Below, piece by piece: positions 52,398 through 56,882 of a stretch of 64,000 bases of DNA. Below the pieces are notes generated by a model. The model searched no databases and had not been told where the DNA came from. It saw only the letters and a program-made list of their open reading frames with translations. The stretch comes from a virus, in the IMG/VR virus record IMGVR_UViG_3300030102_006934, positions 26,703 through 90,702 of that record. One strand, given 5' to 3'. Positions within the stretch are counted from its first letter, which is position 1; each line of letters opens with the position of its first letter. Both the position numbers and the translations under genes were made by a program.

Positions 52398-53453
52398 ATG
52401 CCCAAAAAAGATTACTATAAAATACTAGGTGTTAACAGAGATTCTGATGCCAAAACAATTAAAAAGGCATATAGAAAGTTATCTAAAAAATACCATCCAG
52501 ATGTAAATCCAGATAACAAAGAAGCTGAGGAAAAATTTAAAGACGTTGCTTCAGCATATGAGGTCCTTTCTGATAAAACTAAAAAGAGTAATTATGATAC
52601 CTTTGGTGATGAGAATGGGCGACCCAATAACTCATTTAATGATACAAACATGTCTGATATATTTAGTCAGTTTGGTTTTGGTGGGAGAGCAAATCCATTT
52701 ACAAGACAAAGACAAACTAGGGGTAATGATTTGGCTTTAAATATAAAAATAAGTCTTGAGGATGTTCATAACGGACTGACTAAAAAATTCAAATATAGGA
52801 GGAACGCAAAGTGTGAACCATGTGACGGTGAAGGTGGAACAGAAAAATCAACTTGTCCAAATTGTAATGGTACTGGGTATCAAACATTCCAACAAAAAAC
52901 CCCAATGGGTATTATGAGACAAATGGTTGATTGTAGTACGTGCGAATCAACTGGTGAGGTAAATAAAAAAATGTGTAACTCATGTTCTGGAAATGGAGTT
53001 AAAAATAAAGAAGAATATATAGAGGTTAAAATACCAAAAGGTGTTACAGATAATGATATTATATCATATAATGGTATGGGTCATTCTATAAAGGGTGGTT
53101 CTTCGGGTAGACTAATAGTTAAATTATTAATCACAAAAAATGAGCACTTTACTAGAAATGGTGATGATTTAAAATATAATTTAAAATTAAAATACCCACA
53201 ATTGGTTTTAGGTGATAAGGTAGAAATACCAACAATAGACGGAACTAAAATAAGAGTTAAAATACCAAAGTTAAGTAATATTGGTGATAACTTAAGAATC
53301 GTTGGTAAAGGATTAAATAGCAAAAAGGGTGATAATGTAGTTGGTGACATGTTAATAAATTTAGATATTGAAATGCCTAAAAAACTAGAAGAAGGTGAAG
53401 AAGAACTAATAGATAAATTAAAAATAATTAATGAAAGAGTTGCTAAAGAATAA
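52398..53453 (+). CDS. dnaJ: DnaJ co-chaperone (J domain plus CxxCxGxG zinc fingers plus C-terminal domains)
   Basis: DYYKILGV...KYHPDVN (HPD motif); four CxxCxGxG repeats ([32 protein letters not shown]). Confidence 0.85.
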
Positions 53454-53700
53454 AATGAATGATATATTTGATGGAAATATTAACTATATGAGTGAAAATT
53501 CAGGTAAAGGTGGGGGATTAGGTTTAAGCACTATGGTGTTTATAGTATTCCTAATACTTAAATTATGTAAAGTAGGTATGGTTGCCAACTGGTCATGGTT
53601 GTGGGTAACATCCCCATTATGGATACCAATAATTGTTATGTTTGGTATAATAGTTATGGTACTGATACTTAGCTTTATAGTTAAAATTTTTGATTATTAA
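53431..53700 (+). CDS. Small membrane protein (two TM segments)
   Basis: 89 aa with two hydrophobic helices. Confidence 0.35.
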
Positions 53701-53731
53701 ATAATATTATATTAACAATTAAATTAAATTT

Positions 53732-54151
53732 ATGGCAAAGTACGAAGAACCATTTAAAGACACACAAGAAATTTTTGATGAAGTGATTAGAAATTCAGGC
53801 TTGGACAGGTATATCAACATTAAATTATTGGTAGATAATAAGCAAAAGAAAAAAGTTGCAAAACCATATAAGTCACCAAACTTATTAAAACATGAAACAA
53901 AAAATGATGTTTACATTATAATAAATGAATTGATTTTTGAACAACTAGAAACCTGGCAAAAATTAATGGTCGCTGAGGAAGCTATAGCTGGAATTAGTTT
54001 TGATACGGAAAAGGATAAACTAGAAATAAAAACTGGTGACATCTCAACTTTTTCAGGGCTATTAAAGAAGTATGGCTATGAAAGGTACGAAGTAGTTGAA
54101 GAGTCTGTCAAGACACTATATAATGTCGAAAGAGAAACAGCAGAGGTGTAA
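53732..54151 (+). CDS. Hypothetical protein
   Basis: 139 aa ORF. Confidence 0.4.
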   Translation: MAKYEEPFKDTQEIFDEVIRNSGLDRYINIKLLVDNKQKKKVAKPYKSPNLLKHETKNDVYIIINELIFEQLETWQKLMVAEEAIAGISFDTEKDKLEIKTGDISTFSGLLKKYGYERYEVVEESVKTLYNVERETAEV

Positions 54152-54405
54152 TGACTAGAGAAGAAATTGCAGAATATAATGAAGAGGCGCTAATATGTGA
54201 TGGCTTTGATGAAGCCATCATTGGTGTCGCTGAGAGAATAAATTTAGGTCCAGTAGCCGCATATAGCGTTGAAAAAATAATAGAAATACTAATGGAAAGA
54301 GACGGTATGACATATGAAGATGCTCACGAGCACTTTTCTTATAATATTATTGGGTCATGGATGGGCGAATACACACCCGTCTTTATTTACACAAATGAAG
54401 AATAA
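54151..54405 (+). CDS. Hypothetical protein
   Basis: 84 aa ORF with an ATGA overlap. Confidence 0.4.
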   Translation: MTREEIAEYNEEALICDGFDEAIIGVAERINLGPVAAYSVEKIIEILMERDGMTYEDAHEHFSYNIIGSWMGEYTPVFIYTNEE

Positions 54406-54407
54406 AT

Positions 54408-54629
54408 ATGAAAGAACAATTGTACAAATTATTAAGTAGTAAGGCATTATCAGAAAAAGAAGAAGCCTTAACCACATTGAAATTATTATCAGAATATCCA
54501 GCTGGTATTGGTGACCACTCTACTGGTGACTTTTATAATAATGCTGAAGAGGCTCTACAAAAATTAGTTGATGCTGATGATAAGTTAGAAACACTAGATA
54601 AATATAAAGATATTTTATTTAAAATTTAA
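54408..54629 (+). CDS. Hypothetical protein
   Basis: 73 aa ORF. Confidence 0.35.
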   Translation: MKEQLYKLLSSKALSEKEEALTTLKLLSEYPAGIGDHSTGDFYNNAEEALQKLVDADDKLETLDKYKDILFKI

Positions 54630-54633
54630 GATT

Positions 54634-55332
54634 ATGTTAGACTTTTATAGTGAATTTAAAAAATATGCTAAATTACATATGGGTGTTGATGAAATGAAAT
54701 TTCGTGACTGGGAGAACCTACAATCAAATATGTATAATAATGTTCAAGTGGGTGGGTCATTAACACCTTACATATTGGAAGAAAGGGAAATGAGAGTAAC
54801 TCAGATGGACATCTTTTCAAGACTAATGATGGATAGAATATTATGGGTGGCTGGCCCAGTAAACGACCAAATGAGCACTGTACTTCAAGCTCAATTAATG
54901 TTTTTAGATAACGTTGAGGAAAGAGACATTACGATGCATGTCGACTCACCAGGGGGGTCAGTTAAATCTGGATTAAGCATGGTAGATGTTATGAATTATG
55001 TTAAATCAGATATTGTAACCATAAATACTGGTATGGCGGCCTCCATGGGCTCAATATTGCTTGGTAACGGAACTAAAGGTAAAAGATTTTCACTGCCAAA
55101 CTCAAAAGTTATGCTACACCAAGTTTCCGCTGGGGCACAAGGCCATGTTGAAGACATGAAAATTAGTATTGCGGAGGCTGACAAATATAATGATAAACTA
55201 TTTGGCATGTTAGCTAGTTTTTGTGGTAAAACAAAGAAAAGAGTATTAGCTGATTGCAATAGAGATAATTGGCTTGATGCGAAAGAAGCTTTAGACTATG
55301 GCATCATTGATGGTATAGTTGAAAATAAATAA
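54634..55332 (+). CDS. clpP: ClpP family serine protease
   Basis: DSPGGSV, GMAASMGS (catalytic Ser) and MLHQ (catalytic His); collinear with ClpP over about 190 aa. Confidence 0.85.
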   Translation: MLDFYSEFKKYAKLHMGVDEMKFRDWENLQSNMYNNVQVGGSLTPYILEEREMRVTQMDIFSRLMMDRILWVAGPVNDQMSTVLQAQLMFLDNVEERDITMHVDSPGGSVKSGLSMVDVMNYVKSDIVTINTGMAASMGSILLGNGTKGKRFSLPNSKVMLHQVSAGAQGHVEDMKISIAEADKYNDKLFGMLASFCGKTKKRVLADCNRDNWLDAKEALDYGIIDGIVENK

Positions 55333-55382
55333 AGTAAAATCGGGTTGTTACTAATAACAAATGAATATAAAATTAAATTAAT

Positions 55383-55784: not shown

Positions 55785-55804
55785 TAAAACAACAACCCGA
55801 TTTT

Positions 55805-55843
55805 AAATGAGGACCTCGAAAGATTTCCTCATTTTTTTTTTAA
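55805..55843 (+). terminator. Rho-independent terminator (GAGGA...TCCTC stem, GAAA tetraloop)
   Basis: gaggaCCtcGAAAgaTTtcctc plus a T10 run; same architecture as the terminator at 125-152. Confidence 0.65.
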
Positions 55844-55870
55844 CCACTTGACTTTAAGATAAAAGTTTAT

Positions 55871-55878
55871 TATATTTG
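55871..55878 (+). promoter_or_regulatory. Bacteroidetes-type -7 element TATATTTG upstream of the tmRNA
   Basis: TAnnTTTG motif 38 nt upstream of the tmRNA 5' end. Confidence 0.35.
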
Positions 55879-55916
55879 TGAATATTTAAAAACAAAAGAT
55901 ACGTTCTTTAACATAT

Positions 55917-56288
55917 GGGGCAAAATGGTTATTGATTATTTATAGTCGTGATTAGTAAGCATGCAGTGTTAGATTGGAAACACTTTAATTACCTATCATT
56001 TTTCTTAGATGGAAACGAGTTTGACATCGATGAAAACTTCCTAGATACCGCTTCAGTAGAAGTTGGTACGGGAGAGGTTGCATTCGCCTAAGAGTAATGA
56101 TGATGGTGGTAATCCACCAACCCTCTTTGATAGTAGAGTTTAAAAAATTATCCAGAAGATTAGTTATCAGTAAAACGAACTGTAATAAGGGAACTGTTAA
56201 ACTTTGCTGGGATTAGAAACCAGATAAGCATGTAGAAAACTCTTTATGAGTAAGTAAGACTAGAGTTCGAATCTCTATTGCTCCACTA
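55917..56288 (+). ncRNA. ssrA: tmRNA (transfer-messenger RNA, SsrA)
   Basis: 5' GGGGCAA pairs with 3' TTGCTCC through a G3:U70 wobble (the AlaRS identity element). T-arm TAGAG-TTCGAAT-CTCTA, then discriminator A. A UGGUUAUUGA D-loop analogue follows the acceptor. Internal tag frame (56011-56088) ends ...GEVAFA at TAA 56089-56091, followed by stops in other frames and a GGTGG-taat-CCACC hairpin. Region GC is above background. Confidence 0.65.
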
Positions 56289-56378
56289 ATACTCCTTTAT
56301 TTTTATATCAAGGGGTTTACTAAAAAAATATATTACTTATATTTATAAAAGAATAAAAAAAATAAAAAAAATTTTATT

Positions 56379-56828
56379 ATGTCAGTTATTACAGAAAACA
56401 GTACAGTGATGGTCCATTACACTGGTAAATTAAACGATGGATTTGTGTTTGATTCATCAAAAGCCGTTGAAGGTGATGATAGGTTTGTAGATAGAGAACC
56501 ATTAAAAGTTGAGTTGGGTAAAGGGTTAGTTATACCTGGATTTGAAAAGGGTTTAATCGGAATGAAAGCTGGTGAAACTAAAACCGTTGCCATACCAACA
56601 AAAGAAGCTTACGGTGAAAAAAGAGAAGACATGCTTCAAGAAATACCTAAAGAAAACGCCCCAAAAGATGTTAAAGTGGGTGCTGGATTACAAGCGGATG
56701 GCCCAAACGGAAAAATGGTTGTTGTTGTATCTGAGGTTAAAGAAAAAACAGTTGTTATTGATGCAAATCACCCACTAGCTGGAAAAGATTTGAATTTTGA
56801 ATTAGAGGTAGTTTCTATCGAGAAATAG
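56379..56828 (+). CDS. FKBP-type peptidyl-prolyl cis-trans isomerase (SlyD-like)
   Basis: VHYTGKLNDGFVFDSS...LGKGLVIPGFEKGLIGMKAGE...AYGE; inserted-flap-like segment with HPLAGKDLNFELEVV. Confidence 0.8.
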   Translation: MSVITENSTVMVHYTGKLNDGFVFDSSKAVEGDDRFVDREPLKVELGKGLVIPGFEKGLIGMKAGETKTVAIPTKEAYGEKREDMLQEIPKENAPKDVKVGAGLQADGPNGKMVVVVSEVKEKTVVIDANHPLAGKDLNFELEVVSIEK

Positions 56829-56857
56829 ATATATTAAATAACATTTAAGACATTAAA

Positions 56858-56882
56858 AAGCCCACAGTTGTGGGCTTTTTTA
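56858..56882 (+). terminator. Rho-independent terminator
   Basis: aagcccaca-gt-tgtgggct followed by tttttt. Confidence 0.6.

What the first reader, a model, noticed from the sequence alone, without database searches (positions are those of the whole stretch)
52398..56882. Ribosome-rescue and proteostasis island: DnaJ, ClpP, tmRNA and an FKBP/SlyD PPIase
Within 4.5 kb the phage encodes a full DnaJ with J domain and four zinc-finger repeats (52398-53453), a ClpP protease with an intact Ser-His-Asp triad (54634-55332), the tmRNA, and a SlyD-like FKBP PPIase (56379-56828). Each unit is insulated by a strong terminator. ClpP sits far from any capsid gene, so a prohead-protease role is unlikely. 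tmRNA tagging feeds substrates to ClpP-type proteases, and DnaJ and PPIase handle folding. The coherent picture is a phage-borne translational quality-control and protein-turnover module. Such a module has not, to my knowledge, been described as a unit. No SmpB, ClpX or DnaK is present, so the phage proteins would need host partners.
Basis: partly seen in the sequence, partly recalled or inferred. Interest (0 to 1): 0.75.

Follow-up and report, generated by a model that had tools for sequence, protein, structure and literature searches.

The report
Phage ribosome-rescue and Clp protease island
A huge marine phage carries, within 4.5 kb, its own DnaJ chaperone, ClpP protease core, a working tmRNA with a long tag found only in phages, and an FKBP foldase; dozens of related phages keep the DnaJ–ClpP–tmRNA order, which suggests (but does not prove) a virus-owned system for rescuing stalled ribosomes and removing their products.

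Summary
All four components sit at the stated coordinates: a type-I DnaJ, a cellular-type ClpP with an intact triad, a full-length tmRNA and an IF-domain FKBP. The terminator claim is only partly right. DnaJ to ClpP is one tightly packed seven-ORF block, and terminators occur only before the tmRNA and after FKBP.

The window belongs to a marine huge phage (contig ≥270 kb) related to the Mar_Mega/LR745206/Lak megaphages. In about 36 non-redundant relatives the order DnaJ, pseudo-metallopeptidase, small ORF, ClpP, tmRNA is conserved. FKBP is accessory (10/34). Some relatives add SmpB between ClpP and the tmRNA, or an RF1-like GGQ protein. Others encode a ClpA/C-type unfoldase beside ClpP or elsewhere on the same contig.

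The tmRNA shows covariation and an invariant G3·U70. Its 25–26-aa tag is under peptide-level selection and was found in no bacterial genome.

The prohead-protease reading is disfavoured. However, more distant megaphages scatter these genes, and SmpB in huge phages is rarely next to ClpP or a tmRNA. Functional coupling is therefore plausible, not shown. This is a new variant of a known kind.

The parts
51699..52367 (-). Conserved 222-aa ORF of unknown function, transcribed divergently from DnaJ
   Evidence: Present next to DnaJ in 28 of 34 non-redundant group-1 loci. No Pfam, PHROG or PADLOC match.
52398..53453 (+). Type-I DnaJ (Hsp40) co-chaperone; first gene of the DnaJ-to-ClpP block
   Evidence: Pfam DnaJ, CXXCXGXG and DnaJ_C. 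TIGR02349 345.4 bits, just under its cut-off of 377.2. HPD at residues 33-35, present in 26 of 26 homologues, and four Cys repeats. 32% identical to E. coli DnaJ.
53431..53700 (+). Small hydrophobic ORF (89 aa) overlapping the DnaJ stop; variable
   Evidence: phrog_1374, E = 1e-16. Found in only 5 of 34 relatives.
53732..54151 (+). PhageMetallopep-like protein without the HExxH motif (a likely pseudo-peptidase); core member of the island
   Evidence: PF18894 28.9 bits against a cut-off of 23.7. Present in 30 of 34 loci. All 30 homologues read xEExxA (for example AEEAIA) where HExxH would be.
54151..54405 (+). 84-aa conserved ORF directly upstream of ClpP; function unknown
54408..54629 (+). 73-aa ORF; variable
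   Evidence: phrog_1811. Present in 8 of 34 loci.
54634..55332 (+). ClpP, the serine protease core of ATP-dependent Clp proteases, with a roughly 40-aa N-terminal extension
   Evidence: PF00574 196.6 bits. NF011091 229.6 bits over residues 6-232. S137/H162/D211 and the N-terminal axial-loop segment are conserved relative to E. coli ClpP. All top PDB hits are cellular ClpPs.
55383..55784 (+). 133-aa ORF with an N-terminal hydrophobic segment and a charged, helical-looking remainder; variable; bracketed by a 15-nt perfect inverted repeat (55335-55349 / 55791-55805)
   Evidence: Present in 12 of 34 loci. Inverted repeat I1 is 100% complementary. Only weak coiled-coil-type Pfam hits.
55805..55841 (+). 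Intrinsic-terminator-like hairpin (9-bp stem, 12-nt loop, T-run) that ends the DnaJ-ClpP block
   Evidence: Read directly from the sequence. The scanner missed it because the loop exceeds 8 nt.
55848..55876 (+). Promoter-like TTGACT-17-TATATT about 40 nt upstream of the tmRNA 5' end
   Evidence: 10 of 12 consensus match. A consensus match only; function is inferred.
55917..56288 (+). Full-length one-piece tmRNA; tag ORF at 56011-56091 encodes GNEFDIDENFLDTASVEVGTGEVAFA*
   Evidence: ARAGORN. Rfam 59.7 bits, model positions 1-374. 31 of 41 pairs carry compensatory changes, and G3:U70 is present in 31 of 31 relatives. The tag frame is conserved, with synonymous variation.
56379..56828 (+). SlyD/FkpB-type FKBP prolyl isomerase with an IF chaperone insert and no His-rich tail; accessory member
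   Evidence: PF00254. PRK15095 75.7 bits and SlyD 69.1 bits, both below cut-off. Full-length alignment to 1ix5, SlyD and SlpA. Present in 10 of 34 loci.
56855..56882 (+). Strong intrinsic terminator after FKBP (AAAAAGCCCAC-agtt-GTGGGCTTTTT)
   Evidence: Read directly from the sequence.

Best explanation
The region is a clade-specific proteostasis and ribosome-rescue island of a huge marine phage.

Shown: the genes are intact and under selection.
- A DnaJ-to-ClpP block of seven close-packed ORFs is read as one unit and ends at a terminator.
- A separately promoted, full-length tmRNA follows.
- An FKBP/SlyD-type foldase with its own terminator follows that.

Inferred mechanism:
1. During a long infection that degrades host nucleic acids, many ribosomes stall on broken mRNAs.
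2. The phage tmRNA is charged with alanine by the host AlaRS (G3:U70 is invariant). It is delivered by SmpB, which is host-encoded here and phage-encoded in some relatives. It then frees those ribosomes for phage translation.
3. The tmRNA appends a 25-26-residue acidic tag specific to this phage clade, ending in G-E-[VL]-A-[VLF]-A.
4. The tagged fragments are unfolded by a Clp ATPase and degraded in the phage ClpP chamber, which recycles amino acids. The ATPase is either the clade's own ClpA/C-type enzyme, encoded elsewhere in the genome, or host ClpX/ClpA.
5. DnaJ (with host DnaK, or phage DnaK in some relatives) and the FKBP assist folding of the large phage proteome.

The physical linkage of DnaJ, ClpP and tmRNA is conserved in this clade. 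Their biochemical coupling is not demonstrated.
For: Components intact.

Conservation. A tmRNA lies 0.1-1.8 kb (6.7 kb in L003/L020) downstream of ClpP in 42 of 46 IMG/VR loci with ClpP identity of 65% or more. It is also present in two mis-binned MAG contigs. DnaJ, the pseudo-peptidase and o54151 are each present in 28-30 of 34 non-redundant loci, even though DnaJ identity falls to 38-59%.

tmRNA functional. 31 of 41 base pairs show compensatory changes, and G3:U70 is invariant.

Tag under peptide selection. Only in-frame gaps occur. Invariant residues vary in codon (N9 AAT 21 / AAC 11; L11 CTT 22 / CTA 7 / TTG 2; A24 GCA 21 / GCT 8 / GCG 2). Codon-position entropy is 0.54/0.37/0.90.

Thematically matching accessory genes in the same island:
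- A true SmpB (175.7 bits against a cut-off of 130) sits exactly between ClpP and the tmRNA in L027/L028. Another overlaps the ClpP stop codon in the otherwise unrelated context of L064/L067.
- An RF1-like GGQ protein lies 2-4 kb downstream in about 10 loci.
- DnaK and FKBP lie upstream of ClpP in L053 and L082.
- tRNA arrays flank ClpP in group-2 loci.

Unfoldase. A 670-aa ClpA/C-type double AAA+ protein with a G-[IV]-G-F loop lies 1.2 kb upstream of ClpP in L056/L072. Homologues occur in LR745206 and LR756502 and on the same 368.5-kb contig as group-1 island L029.

ClpP is of the cellular type and is not near capsid genes.
Against: - The whole neighbourhood is collinear in this clade, so ClpP-tmRNA adjacency could be inherited synteny and not selected linkage.
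- In the next-closest megaphages the same gene families are dispersed. In LR745206, ClpP is at 75 kb, FKBP at 103 kb and DnaJ at 461 kb. In Lak phages, ClpP and DnaJ are 68-75 kb apart. No tmRNA lies near ClpP or FKBP in LR745206 or LR756502.
- Of 80 viral SmpB loci, only 2 (one phage type) have ClpP within 4 kb and only 5 have a tmRNA.
- Two residues of the ClpP docking pocket differ from E. coli (Y60 to T, Y62 to H), so partner choice is uncertain.
- The tag ends A-[VLF]-A, not the canonical L-A-A, and nothing here shows that any Clp ATPase recognises it.
- No SmpB, unfoldase or DnaK was found in the 64-kb window itself.
Confidence: 0.5

Rival explanations
1. The genes are real and each is individually useful, but they are only neighbours by descent. 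On this reading the region is a hot spot where host-derived auxiliary genes accumulate, with no biochemical coupling between the tmRNA tag and the phage ClpP.
For: - The entire 20-kb neighbourhood is collinear in group 1, not only these genes.
- The same families are scattered over tens to hundreds of kb in LR745206, LR756502 and Lak.
- SmpB in huge phages is usually not next to ClpP or a tmRNA.
- FKBP, o55383, SmpB and the RF-like gene come and go, as in a variable region.
Against: - The accessory genes that appear in this one spot are strongly biased towards ribosome rescue and proteostasis: SmpB, the RF1-like GGQ protein, FKBP and DnaK.
- ClpP-SmpB adjacency arises in two different genomic contexts. 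In L064 the two genes overlap at the stop/start codons.
- DnaJ to ClpP is packed like an operon.
Confidence: 0.3
2. The island is mainly a host-takeover or counter-defence device. ClpP, with a phage or host unfoldase, degrades host proteins. DnaJ hijacks host DnaK or neutralises DnaJ-dependent immune sensors. The tmRNA counters defences or stresses that stall ribosomes.
For: - Iyer et al. 2021 (PMC7824862) interpret the patchy ClpP of jumbo phages as deployed against the host, and DnaJ as recruiting host Hsp70.
- The moraphage paper (PMC12619734) discusses phage DnaJ/DnaK as possible counter-defence.
- The conserved pseudo-metallopeptidase and the 84-aa ORF beside ClpP could be substrate adaptors.
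Against: - No island protein has a significant, functionally informative match to a defence or anti-defence model in PADLOC; only two marginal hits appeared (E about 5e-4, 17 bits).
- No host target is identifiable.
- Nothing here distinguishes this reading from quality control, and the two are not mutually exclusive.
Confidence: 0.13
3. The ClpP-like ORF is the prohead (head-maturation) protease of this phage.
For: - PHROG best hits are families annotated 'head maturation protease': phrog_94 at E = 8.5e-38, matching only positions 57-252 of 622.
- One GenBank record annotates a jumbo-phage homologue that way.
Against: - The ORF matches cellular ClpP models over its full length (229.6 and 214.8 bits). 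It scores 71.5 bits (cut-off 120) for the ClpP-related head-maturation model and 76.6 bits (cut-off 475) for the protease-capsid fusion model.
- It keeps the N-terminal axial-loop segment used for ATPase coupling.
- It has no scaffold or capsid fusion, and no capsid, portal or scaffold gene lies within about 54 kb upstream or 19 kb downstream.
- In relatives its neighbours are SmpB, the tmRNA, tRNA arrays and a ClpA/C-type ATPase.
- Phage G and the possibly related moraphages encode a separate head protease.
Confidence: 0.07

Closest known systems
Bacterial trans-translation with Clp degradation (ssrA/tmRNA, SmpB, ClpXP/ClpAP, SspB)
   Same: Full-length one-piece tmRNA with a tRNA-like domain, G3:U70 and an in-frame tag ending in a small hydrophobic C-terminus. 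A cellular-type ClpP with the Ser-His-Asp triad. SmpB lies next to the tmRNA in some relatives, as smpB-ssrA does in E. coli.
   Different: It is encoded by a virus. The tag is 25-26 aa (bacterial tags are typically about 10-14) and ends A-[VLF]-A, not LAA. Its signature was found in no bacterial species genome; all true hits were phage contigs. ClpP is physically linked to the tmRNA and DnaJ, which is not the usual bacterial layout. No ClpX was found. The clade's unfoldase is of the ClpA/C type.
Translation-related gene sets of huge phages (Al-Shayeb et al. 2020, PMC7162821; Mar_Mega_1, PMC9723777)
   Same: The same broad lineage: best GenBank relatives are LR745206, LR756502 and Lak. tmRNA and SmpB are reported as present in huge phages. 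Mar_Mega_1 has one tmRNA.
   Different: Those papers list the genes as inventory. They do not describe a conserved DnaJ-ClpP-tmRNA arrangement, the tag peptide or a link to Clp. In LR745206 and LR756502 the genes are in fact dispersed.
Phage G ClpP-ClpX pair plus tmRNA (PMC12484599)
   Same: A cultivated megaphage encoding ClpP, a Clp ATPase and one tmRNA. The authors suggest ClpXP 'monitors translation'.
   Different: In phage G, ClpP is adjacent to ClpX, and the tmRNA (13-aa tag AKLNITNNELQVA) lies elsewhere. Here ClpP is adjacent to the tmRNA and DnaJ, and the ATPase (ClpA/C-type) is distant. The host phylum and phage lineage also differ.
Jumbo-phage ClpP and J-domain proteins (Iyer et al. 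2021, PMC7824862; RB43 Rki, cited in PMC12619734; moraphage DnaJ/DnaK/ClpA)
   Same: Sporadic ClpP and DnaJ in large phages, thought to use host partners. Moraphages, which infect Bacteroidota, have DnaJ/DnaK, ClpA as a core gene and a separate gp21-type prohead protease.
   Different: These are described as isolated genes. The moraphage paper does not mention tmRNA at all (0 occurrences). I did not test whether this window's clade is a moraphage lineage.

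Membership tests
ClpP (peptidase S14, ATP-dependent Clp protease core) | Full-length match to the CLP_protease domain | tested here: met
   PF00574 196.6 bits, profile positions 5-181 of 182. All top PDB hits are cellular ClpPs, best 169 bits.
ClpP (peptidase S14, ATP-dependent Clp protease core) | Ser-His-Asp catalytic triad | tested here: met
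   S137, H162 and D211 are invariant columns aligned with E. coli S97/H122/D171 (E. coli numbering from memory).
ClpP (peptidase S14, ATP-dependent Clp protease core) | N-terminal axial-loop segment that gates the pore and couples to the ATPase | tested here: met
   LTPYILEEREMRVTQMDIFSRL aligns with E. coli [22 protein letters not shown]. P45, E49, D59 and S62-R63-L64 are invariant.
ClpP (peptidase S14, ATP-dependent Clp protease core) | Score above NCBIfam equivalog cut-offs | tested here: not met
   NF011091 229.6 against 361; TIGR00493 187.7 against 308.6; NF001368 214.8 against 249. It is a diverged viral ClpP, not an orthologue by NCBI's thresholds.
ClpP (peptidase S14, ATP-dependent Clp protease core) | Hydrophobic pocket that docks the IGF/LGF loops of ClpX/ClpA/ClpC | tested here: inconclusive
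   F112, L114, I90, F49 and L23 are conserved or similar, but Y60 becomes T and Y62 becomes H (the pocket residue list is from memory).
ClpP (peptidase S14, ATP-dependent Clp protease core) | A partner AAA+ unfoldase with a ClpP-docking loop | tested here: inconclusive
   None in the window. In the clade, a ClpA/C-type ATPase with a G-[IV]-G-F loop lies adjacent to ClpP in L056/L072 and on the same contig as group-1 island L029. Not shown for this genome.
ClpP-related phage head-maturation protease | Score above the NF045542 / NF045540 cut-offs | tested here: not met
   71.5 against 120 and 76.6 against 475. The matches cover only residues 91-230.
ClpP-related phage head-maturation protease | Fusion to, or adjacency with, scaffold, major capsid or portal genes | tested here: not met
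   The ORF is 232 aa with no extra domain. No capsid, portal or scaffold Pfam family appears from about 10 kb upstream of the window to about 10 kb downstream.
tmRNA (Rfam RF00023) | Covariance-model score above gathering threshold, full length | tested here: met
   59.7 against 47 bits, model positions 1-374 of 374. ARAGORN agrees.
tmRNA (Rfam RF00023) | tRNA-Ala-like acceptor stem with G3:U70, and a T-arm | tested here: met
   G:U in 31 of 31 relatives at alignment columns 4:408. The acceptor and T stems show many compensatory changes.
tmRNA (Rfam RF00023) | Internal tag reading frame ending in a stop codon, conserved as a peptide | tested here: met
   26 codons plus TAA at 56011-56091. 32 distinct homologous tags, in-frame gaps only, and an excess of third-position variation.
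tmRNA (Rfam RF00023) | Pseudoknots PK1-PK4 | tested here: inconclusive
   The helix 2 / PK1 region is well aligned and covaries. The PK2-PK4 region aligns with low posterior probability and is length-variable among relatives.
tmRNA (Rfam RF00023) | Cognate SmpB | tested here: not met
   No SmpB in the window. SmpB lies beside the tmRNA in L027/L028 only. Host SmpB, or a distant phage copy, would be needed.
Type-I DnaJ (Hsp40, TIGR02349) | J domain with HPD; Gly/Phe-rich linker; four CxxCxGxG repeats; C-terminal substrate-binding domain | tested here: met
   All three Pfam domains are present. HPD at 33-35 and four Cys repeats (the third is CxxCxSxG). The G/F linker is short but present.
Type-I DnaJ (Hsp40, TIGR02349) | Score above the equivalog cut-off | tested here: not met
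   345.4 against 377.2 bits. A near miss, consistent with a diverged viral copy.
SlyD / FkpB (SlpA)-type FKBP | FKBP domain interrupted by an insert-in-flap (IF) chaperone domain | tested here: met
   PF00254 covers residues 5-84 only. Full-length alignments (residues 8-147) to 1ix5, SlyD chimeras, SlyD and SlpA include the insert.
SlyD / FkpB (SlpA)-type FKBP | His/Cys-rich C-terminal metal-binding tail (SlyD proper), and a score above the equivalog cut-offs | tested here: not met
   The protein ends at residue 149 with no His-rich tail. PRK15095 75.7 against 125; PRK10737 69.1 against 174.
PF18894 putative phage metallopeptidase (ORF 53732-54151) | HExxH zinc-binding motif | tested here: not met
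   The Pfam score passes (28.9 against 23.7), but none of the 30 homologues has a His at the expected motif; they read xEExxA. That the family normally carries HExxH is from memory.

The most novel reading that the evidence does not exclude
The phage runs a private tagging-and-degradation pathway. Its tmRNA installs a virus-specific 25-26-residue degron with two [DN][DE]NF-like motifs and a G-E-[VL]-A-[VLF]-A C-terminus. That tag was found in none of 185,579 bacterial and archaeal species genomes. It would be read preferentially by the phage's own ClpP together with its ClpA/C-type unfoldase, possibly through the conserved pseudo-peptidase or the 84-aa ORF acting as an adaptor. Products of stalled ribosomes would then be routed to a viral protease independently of the host ssrA/ClpXP system.
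Probability: 0.22. Interest if true: 0.8.

Novelty: new variant of a known kind. Interest (0 to 1): 0.58.

Why it matters
Huge phages are known to carry translation genes, but what their tmRNAs do is an open question. This clade gives a concrete, testable case.

- The tmRNA is clearly functional: it shows covariation, an invariant AlaRS identity pair, and a tag kept as a peptide.
- It is physically tied to a cellular-type ClpP and a DnaJ across dozens of diverged genomes.
- Relatives add SmpB, a release-factor-like protein or a Clp unfoldase.

If the phage tag is a degron for the phage protease, this would be the first virus-owned trans-translation and proteolysis pathway. It would explain how giant phages keep ribosomes and amino acids available during long infections. 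The tag and protease could also serve as an orthogonal degradation pair for synthetic biology. If the genes are only neighbours, the result still documents a lineage-specific long tmRNA tag and corrects the prohead-protease annotation that PHROGs suggests.

Tried and rejected
- Megablast of 52300-57000 and blastn of the tmRNA against GenBank phages found nothing. Relatives were reachable only at the protein level.
- OU342829.1 (Mar_Mega_1) is not in the phage collection, so I could not compare it directly.
- ARAGORN alone missed about a third of the relatives' tmRNAs. An nhmmer profile recovered them.
- I looked for a tmRNA near ClpP or FKBP in LR745206 and LR756502, and in seven group-2 loci, with Rfam, nhmmer and ARAGORN. 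There was none.
- I tested whether the upstream DUF2828/DUF7788 protein resembles Ro60/TROVE. There was no PDB sequence hit at E <= 1, so this is left as a lead.
- PADLOC defence models gave nothing meaningful.
- The tag-signature scan of bacterial genomes returned three loci. Two are phage contigs binned into MAGs and one is a chance match.
- The idea that ClpP-SmpB-tmRNA linkage is general in huge phages is rejected: 2 of 80 SmpB loci have ClpP nearby and 5 of 80 have a tmRNA.
- The prohead-protease reading is rejected for the reasons in the membership test.
- I did not try to find a T4 gp21-type prohead protease in this clade, because no capsid-region sequence was accessible.

Full report
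**1. What is in the sequence**

- **DnaJ, 52398-53453.** A type-I DnaJ with J domain, Cys-rich domain and C-terminal domain. TIGR02349 scores 345.4 bits, just under its cut-off of 377.2. HPD is at residues 33-35. The four Cys repeats are at residues 139, 153, 179 and 193.
- **ClpP, 54634-55332.** A cellular-type ClpP.
  - PF00574 scores 196.6 bits over the whole profile.
  - NF011091 scores 229.6 bits over residues 6-232, so the roughly 40-residue N-terminal extension is part of the match.
  - In an alignment with E. coli ClpP, S137, H162 and D211 are invariant, and the N-terminal axial-loop segment is conserved.
  - All top PDB hits are bacterial ClpPs.
- **tmRNA, 55917-56288.** A full-length one-piece tmRNA at 59.7 bits against a gathering score of 47, matching model positions 1-374.
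- **FKBP, 56379-56828.** An FKBP that aligns end to end with the insert-in-flap FKBPs: archaeal FKBP17 (1ix5), SlyD and SlpA. It lacks SlyD's His-rich tail.

tblastn with E. coli SmpB, ClpX and DnaK, and with phage SmpB, ClpA/C-type ATPase and RF-like proteins, finds none of them in the window. The precomputed Pfam labels agree.

**2. Transcription-unit anatomy**

The statement that each unit is insulated by a strong terminator is only partly right. The scanner reports a single plus-strand site, 57152-57172, and no enrichment (3 found, 2.0 +/- 1.8 expected).

Reading the sequence shows two convincing hairpin-plus-T-run terminators:
- about 55805-55841, after ORF 55383-55784;
- about 56855-56882, after FKBP.

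A TTGACT-17-TATATT match at 55848-55876 lies about 40 nt upstream of the tmRNA.

Between DnaJ and ClpP there is no terminator. The seven ORFs from 52398 to 55332 overlap or are separated by a few bases.

I therefore read the anatomy as three units:
1. a DnaJ-to-ClpP operon-like block, possibly including the variable ORF 55383-55784;
2. an independently promoted tmRNA;
3. FKBP.

Promoter function is inferred only.

**3. Whose genome is this?**

There is no nucleotide match in GenBank phages. At the protein level the best ClpP, DnaJ and FKBP matches are the 634-642-kb 'uncultured phage' genomes LR745206 and LR756502 and the Lak Prevotella megaphages. This is the Mahaphage clade of Al-Shayeb et al. 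2020 (PMC7162821).

The identical proteins occur on many marine metagenome contigs, including:
- a 270.7-kb Tara contig that contains the window;
- a 229-kb Tara scaffold.

Michniewski et al. 2021 (PMC9723777) describe Mar_Mega_1 (656 kb, one tmRNA) as sister to LR756502 and LR745206, with relatives in Tara contigs and an unknown host. This window fits that description, but I could not compare the two directly.

The surroundings of the window are:
- T4-like replication genes and gp25 upstream;
- large tail/baseplate-type proteins at 1-24 kb;
- primase, SbcCD, a sigma factor and lysin-like genes at 24-48 kb.

There are no capsid, portal or scaffold genes.

**4. Is the cluster conserved?**

A scan of IMG/VR with ClpP returned 80 loci. 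tblastn with all the window's neighbouring proteins, plus ARAGORN and an nhmmer profile of the tmRNA, splits them into two groups.

*Group 1* (46 loci, 34 non-redundant, ClpP 65-86% identical). The order is conserved:

divergent ORF / DnaJ / PhageMetallopep-like ORF / 84-aa ORF / ClpP / tmRNA

A tmRNA is found downstream of ClpP in 42 of 46 loci. Two of the four exceptions, L019 and L040, resemble L003/L020, where about 6 kb is inserted between ClpP and the tmRNA; their loci probably end before the tmRNA. The other two, L025 and L026, have ClpP in a different context.

| Neighbour of ClpP | Non-redundant loci (of 34, within ±5 kb) |
|---|---|
| Pseudo-peptidase (53732-54151) | 30 |
| DnaJ | 28 |
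| 84-aa ORF (54151-54405) | 28 |
| Divergent ORF (51699-52367) | 28 |
| ORF 55383-55784 | 12 |
| FKBP | 10 |

Two further members of this clade surfaced as contigs binned into a 'Methanobacterium' MAG and a 'Gammaproteobacteria' genome. Both carry the whole island.

*Group 2* (ClpP about 60% identical) and the GenBank megaphages. Here ClpP sits in other contexts, and no tmRNA lies within 10-12 kb.
- In LR745206, ClpP, FKBP and DnaJ lie at 75, 103 and 461 kb.
- In Lak phages, ClpP and DnaJ are 68-75 kb apart.

The compact island is therefore a property of one clade. FKBP is an accessory member of it, not a core one.

**5. Accessory genes point the same way**

Several thematically related genes appear in or next to the island in relatives.

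- **SmpB.** A bona fide SmpB (NF003843 175.7 bits, above its cut-off of 130) lies exactly between ClpP and the tmRNA in L027/L028. A 50%-identical SmpB overlaps the ClpP stop codon in group-2 loci L064/L067, whose other neighbours are unrelated.
- **Release-factor-like protein.** A truncated RF1-like protein with the GGQ motif (PF00472 78.2 bits) lies 2-4 kb downstream of ClpP in about ten loci.
- **DnaK and FKBP.** DnaK (56-58% identical to E. coli) and FKBP lie upstream of ClpP in L053 and L082.
- **tRNA arrays.** Group-2 ClpPs are flanked by tRNA arrays.
- **Clp unfoldase.** L056 and L072 carry a 670-aa double-AAA+ Clp ATPase 1.2 kb upstream of ClpP. It matches ClpA in one stretch at 718 bits. 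It has a G-[IV]-G-F motif between TSNxG and FxPEFLNR, which from memory is where ClpA's IGL ClpP-docking loop sits. Homologues exist in LR745206 and LR756502. One also lies on IMGVR_UViG_3300028676_000003, the same 368.5-kb contig that carries group-1 island L029.

So at least one group-1 genome has its own unfoldase. For the window's own phage this is inference.

**6. The counter-evidence**

The group-1 neighbourhood is collinear well beyond these genes, from the DUF2828 protein upstream to ORF 58246 downstream. Adjacency alone does not prove selection for linkage.

SmpB is common in viral contigs, with 443 matches. In the 80 best loci, ClpP is within 4 kb only in the two L027/L028 contigs, and a tmRNA in five.

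Linkage of these functions is therefore the exception among huge phages, not the rule.

**7. The tmRNA and its tag**

*The RNA.* An RNAalifold analysis of 31 distinct tmRNAs gives 41 consensus pairs.
- 31 of the 41 pairs have compensatory double changes.
- The G3:U70 pair that specifies alanylation is present in all 31 sequences.
- The genes encode ...CCA-C-N and not a full CCA 3' end, so CCA addition is required.

*The tag.* Aligning at the resume codon gives 32 distinct tags of 25-26 residues, with gaps only in multiples of three. The consensus is:

[GD]-N-[DE]-F-x-[VI]-[SD]-E-N-F-L-[DN]-[ET]-A ... G-E-[VL]-A-[VLF]-A

Several lines point to selection on the peptide:
- Invariant residues are encoded by several codons: N9 AAT 21 / AAC 11; L11 CTT 22 / CTA 7 / TTG 2; A24 GCA 21 / GCT 8 / GCG 2.
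- Codon-position entropies outside the hairpin are 0.54, 0.37 and 0.90.
- The central part of the tag varies as a peptide but keeps a hairpin through compensatory changes.

One sub-lineage (L003/L020) has a short tag, GNAEYAMAA. From memory, this resembles Bacteroidota-type tags.

*Is the tag bacterial?* A degenerate pattern for the long tag, scanned over one genome for each of 185,579 species, hit only the two mis-binned phage contigs and one chance site. The long tag is therefore specific to this phage lineage, within the limits of an exact-pattern search.

Other huge-phage tmRNAs next to SmpB carry different 21-aa tags, and phage G has a 13-aa tag. Long private tags may be common in big phages.

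**8. Mechanism**

The best-supported reading is a phage-encoded ribosome-rescue and protein-turnover capacity.

1. The tmRNA is charged by host AlaRS.
2. It is delivered by host SmpB (here) or phage SmpB (in some relatives).
3. It releases stalled ribosomes and tags their products.
4. A Clp ATPase feeds the tagged products to the phage ClpP.
5. DnaJ and FKBP support folding.

*Shown:* intact genes, purifying selection on the RNA structure and the tag peptide, conserved order in one clade, and thematically coherent accessory genes.

*Inferred:* that the tag is a degron, that it is read by the phage or host Clp ATPase, and that the operon-like block is co-expressed.

Two pocket residues of ClpP differ from E. 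coli (Y60 to T, Y62 to H), and the tag ends A-x-A and not LAA. Partner specificity is therefore open.

Rivals:
- neighbours by descent without coupling (0.30);
- a host-takeover or counter-defence role, as suggested for jumbo-phage ClpP and DnaJ by Iyer et al. 2021 and the moraphage paper (0.13);
- a prohead protease (0.07).

The prohead reading rests mainly on PHROG labels and on the virion detection of ClpXP in phage G. The family scores, the domain architecture and all the neighbourhoods contradict it.

**9. Other conserved ORFs**

- **ORF 53732-54151** passes the Pfam threshold for PF18894 but lacks any HExxH motif in all 30 homologues.
- **ORF 54151-54405** is ClpP's most persistent protein neighbour and also recurs near group-2 ClpPs. 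A reasonable AF2 model has no significant structural match. It is not recognisably ClpS or SspB.

Either protein could be an adaptor, but nothing shows it.

**10. Novelty**

Each component has been reported in large phages: tmRNA and SmpB (PMC7162821), ClpP and DnaJ (PMC7824862), ClpXP plus tmRNA in phage G (PMC12484599), and DnaJ, DnaK and ClpA in moraphages (PMC12619734).

Full-text searches found no description of a conserved DnaJ-ClpP-tmRNA unit, of ClpP-SmpB-tmRNA adjacency in a phage, or of this tag family.

I rate it a new variant of a known kind: bacterial trans-translation with Clp quality control, here in a viral, rearranged form with a private tag. Interest is moderate to high because it makes the long-standing question of what phage tmRNAs do directly testable.

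Noticed in passing
window 48792-50246: A 484-aa protein with DUF2828 + DUF7788 (vWA-like) is conserved upstream of the island in most group-1 loci (53-73% identity). I suspected a Ro60/TROVE-like RNA quality-control protein, which would extend the theme. No PDB sequence match was found at E <= 1.
   Followed up: partly
window 55335-55349 and 55791-55805: A 15-nt perfect inverted repeat (TAAAATCGGGTTGTT / AACAACCCGATTTTA) brackets the variable ORF 55383-55784 (133 aa, N-terminal hydrophobic segment plus a charged, helical-looking remainder; present in 12 of 34 relatives). It could mark an insertion or a long-range RNA stem.
   Followed up: partly
L307 15746-16867 (about 5.7 kb beyond the window's 3' end on the 270.7-kb Tara contig): A PolyA_pol / CCA-adding-enzyme family gene lies close downstream. 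The tmRNA genes of this clade encode ...CCA-C-N and not a complete CCA 3' end, so a phage nucleotidyltransferase could mature the tmRNA.
   Followed up: no
L139 (PLXT01000115.1, 'Methanobacterium sp.' MAG, 170.7-kb contig) and L141 (CAUYTX010000233.1, 'Gammaproteobacteria bacterium CCP3-SC1AL1'): Both contigs carry the complete DnaJ-ClpP-tmRNA island and are almost certainly huge-phage contigs mis-binned into genomes; archaea have no tmRNA. L139 also has a tRNA with a CUA anticodon (a possible amber suppressor) and two tRNA-Met genes.
   Followed up: partly
L022 12952-13506 and homologues in L023, L027-L031, L036, L041, L042, L139: A truncated class-I release-factor-like protein (184 aa, GGQ motif, RF-1 domain plus the end of PCRF) recurs 2-4 kb downstream of ClpP and the tmRNA. 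It is absent from the window. It may be an ArfB- or PrfH-like rescue factor.
   Followed up: partly
L149 3464-3861; L164 4930-5324 (minus strand): Other huge-phage contigs with SmpB next to a tmRNA carry different long tags (GNTFAKLAALGLTKEAAVVGA, GNILDKMSAIGLIRAEEVVVA). Long lineage-specific tags may be a general feature of big-phage tmRNAs.
   Followed up: no
L003 16733-17071; L020 16732-17070: A sub-lineage has about 6 kb inserted between ClpP and the tmRNA. Its tmRNA carries a short conventional tag, GNAEYAMAA, but stays directly upstream of FKBP.
   Followed up: partly
window 1-64000: No tRNA gene occurs in the whole 64-kb window (ARAGORN and Rfam find only the tmRNA). In group-2 relatives, ClpP sits inside arrays of 12 to more than 20 tRNAs (L049, L053).
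   Followed up: partly
window 32872-33705; 27256-32168; 61031-61855; 59026-59352: Other cargo in the window: a phage sigma-70-family factor, an exonuclease plus SbcD/SbcC-like pair, a Band_7 (stomatin/HflK-like) protein and an FeS_assembly_P (DUF59) protein. The Band_7 protein is of interest because HflK/C regulate the FtsH protease in bacteria.
   Followed up: no
LR745206.1, LR756502.1, LR756504.1: tblastn with the window's ClpP reports two matching places in each of these megaphage genomes. This suggests a second ClpP-like gene (a paralogue or a ClpP-fold prohead protease). I did not examine it.
   Followed up: no
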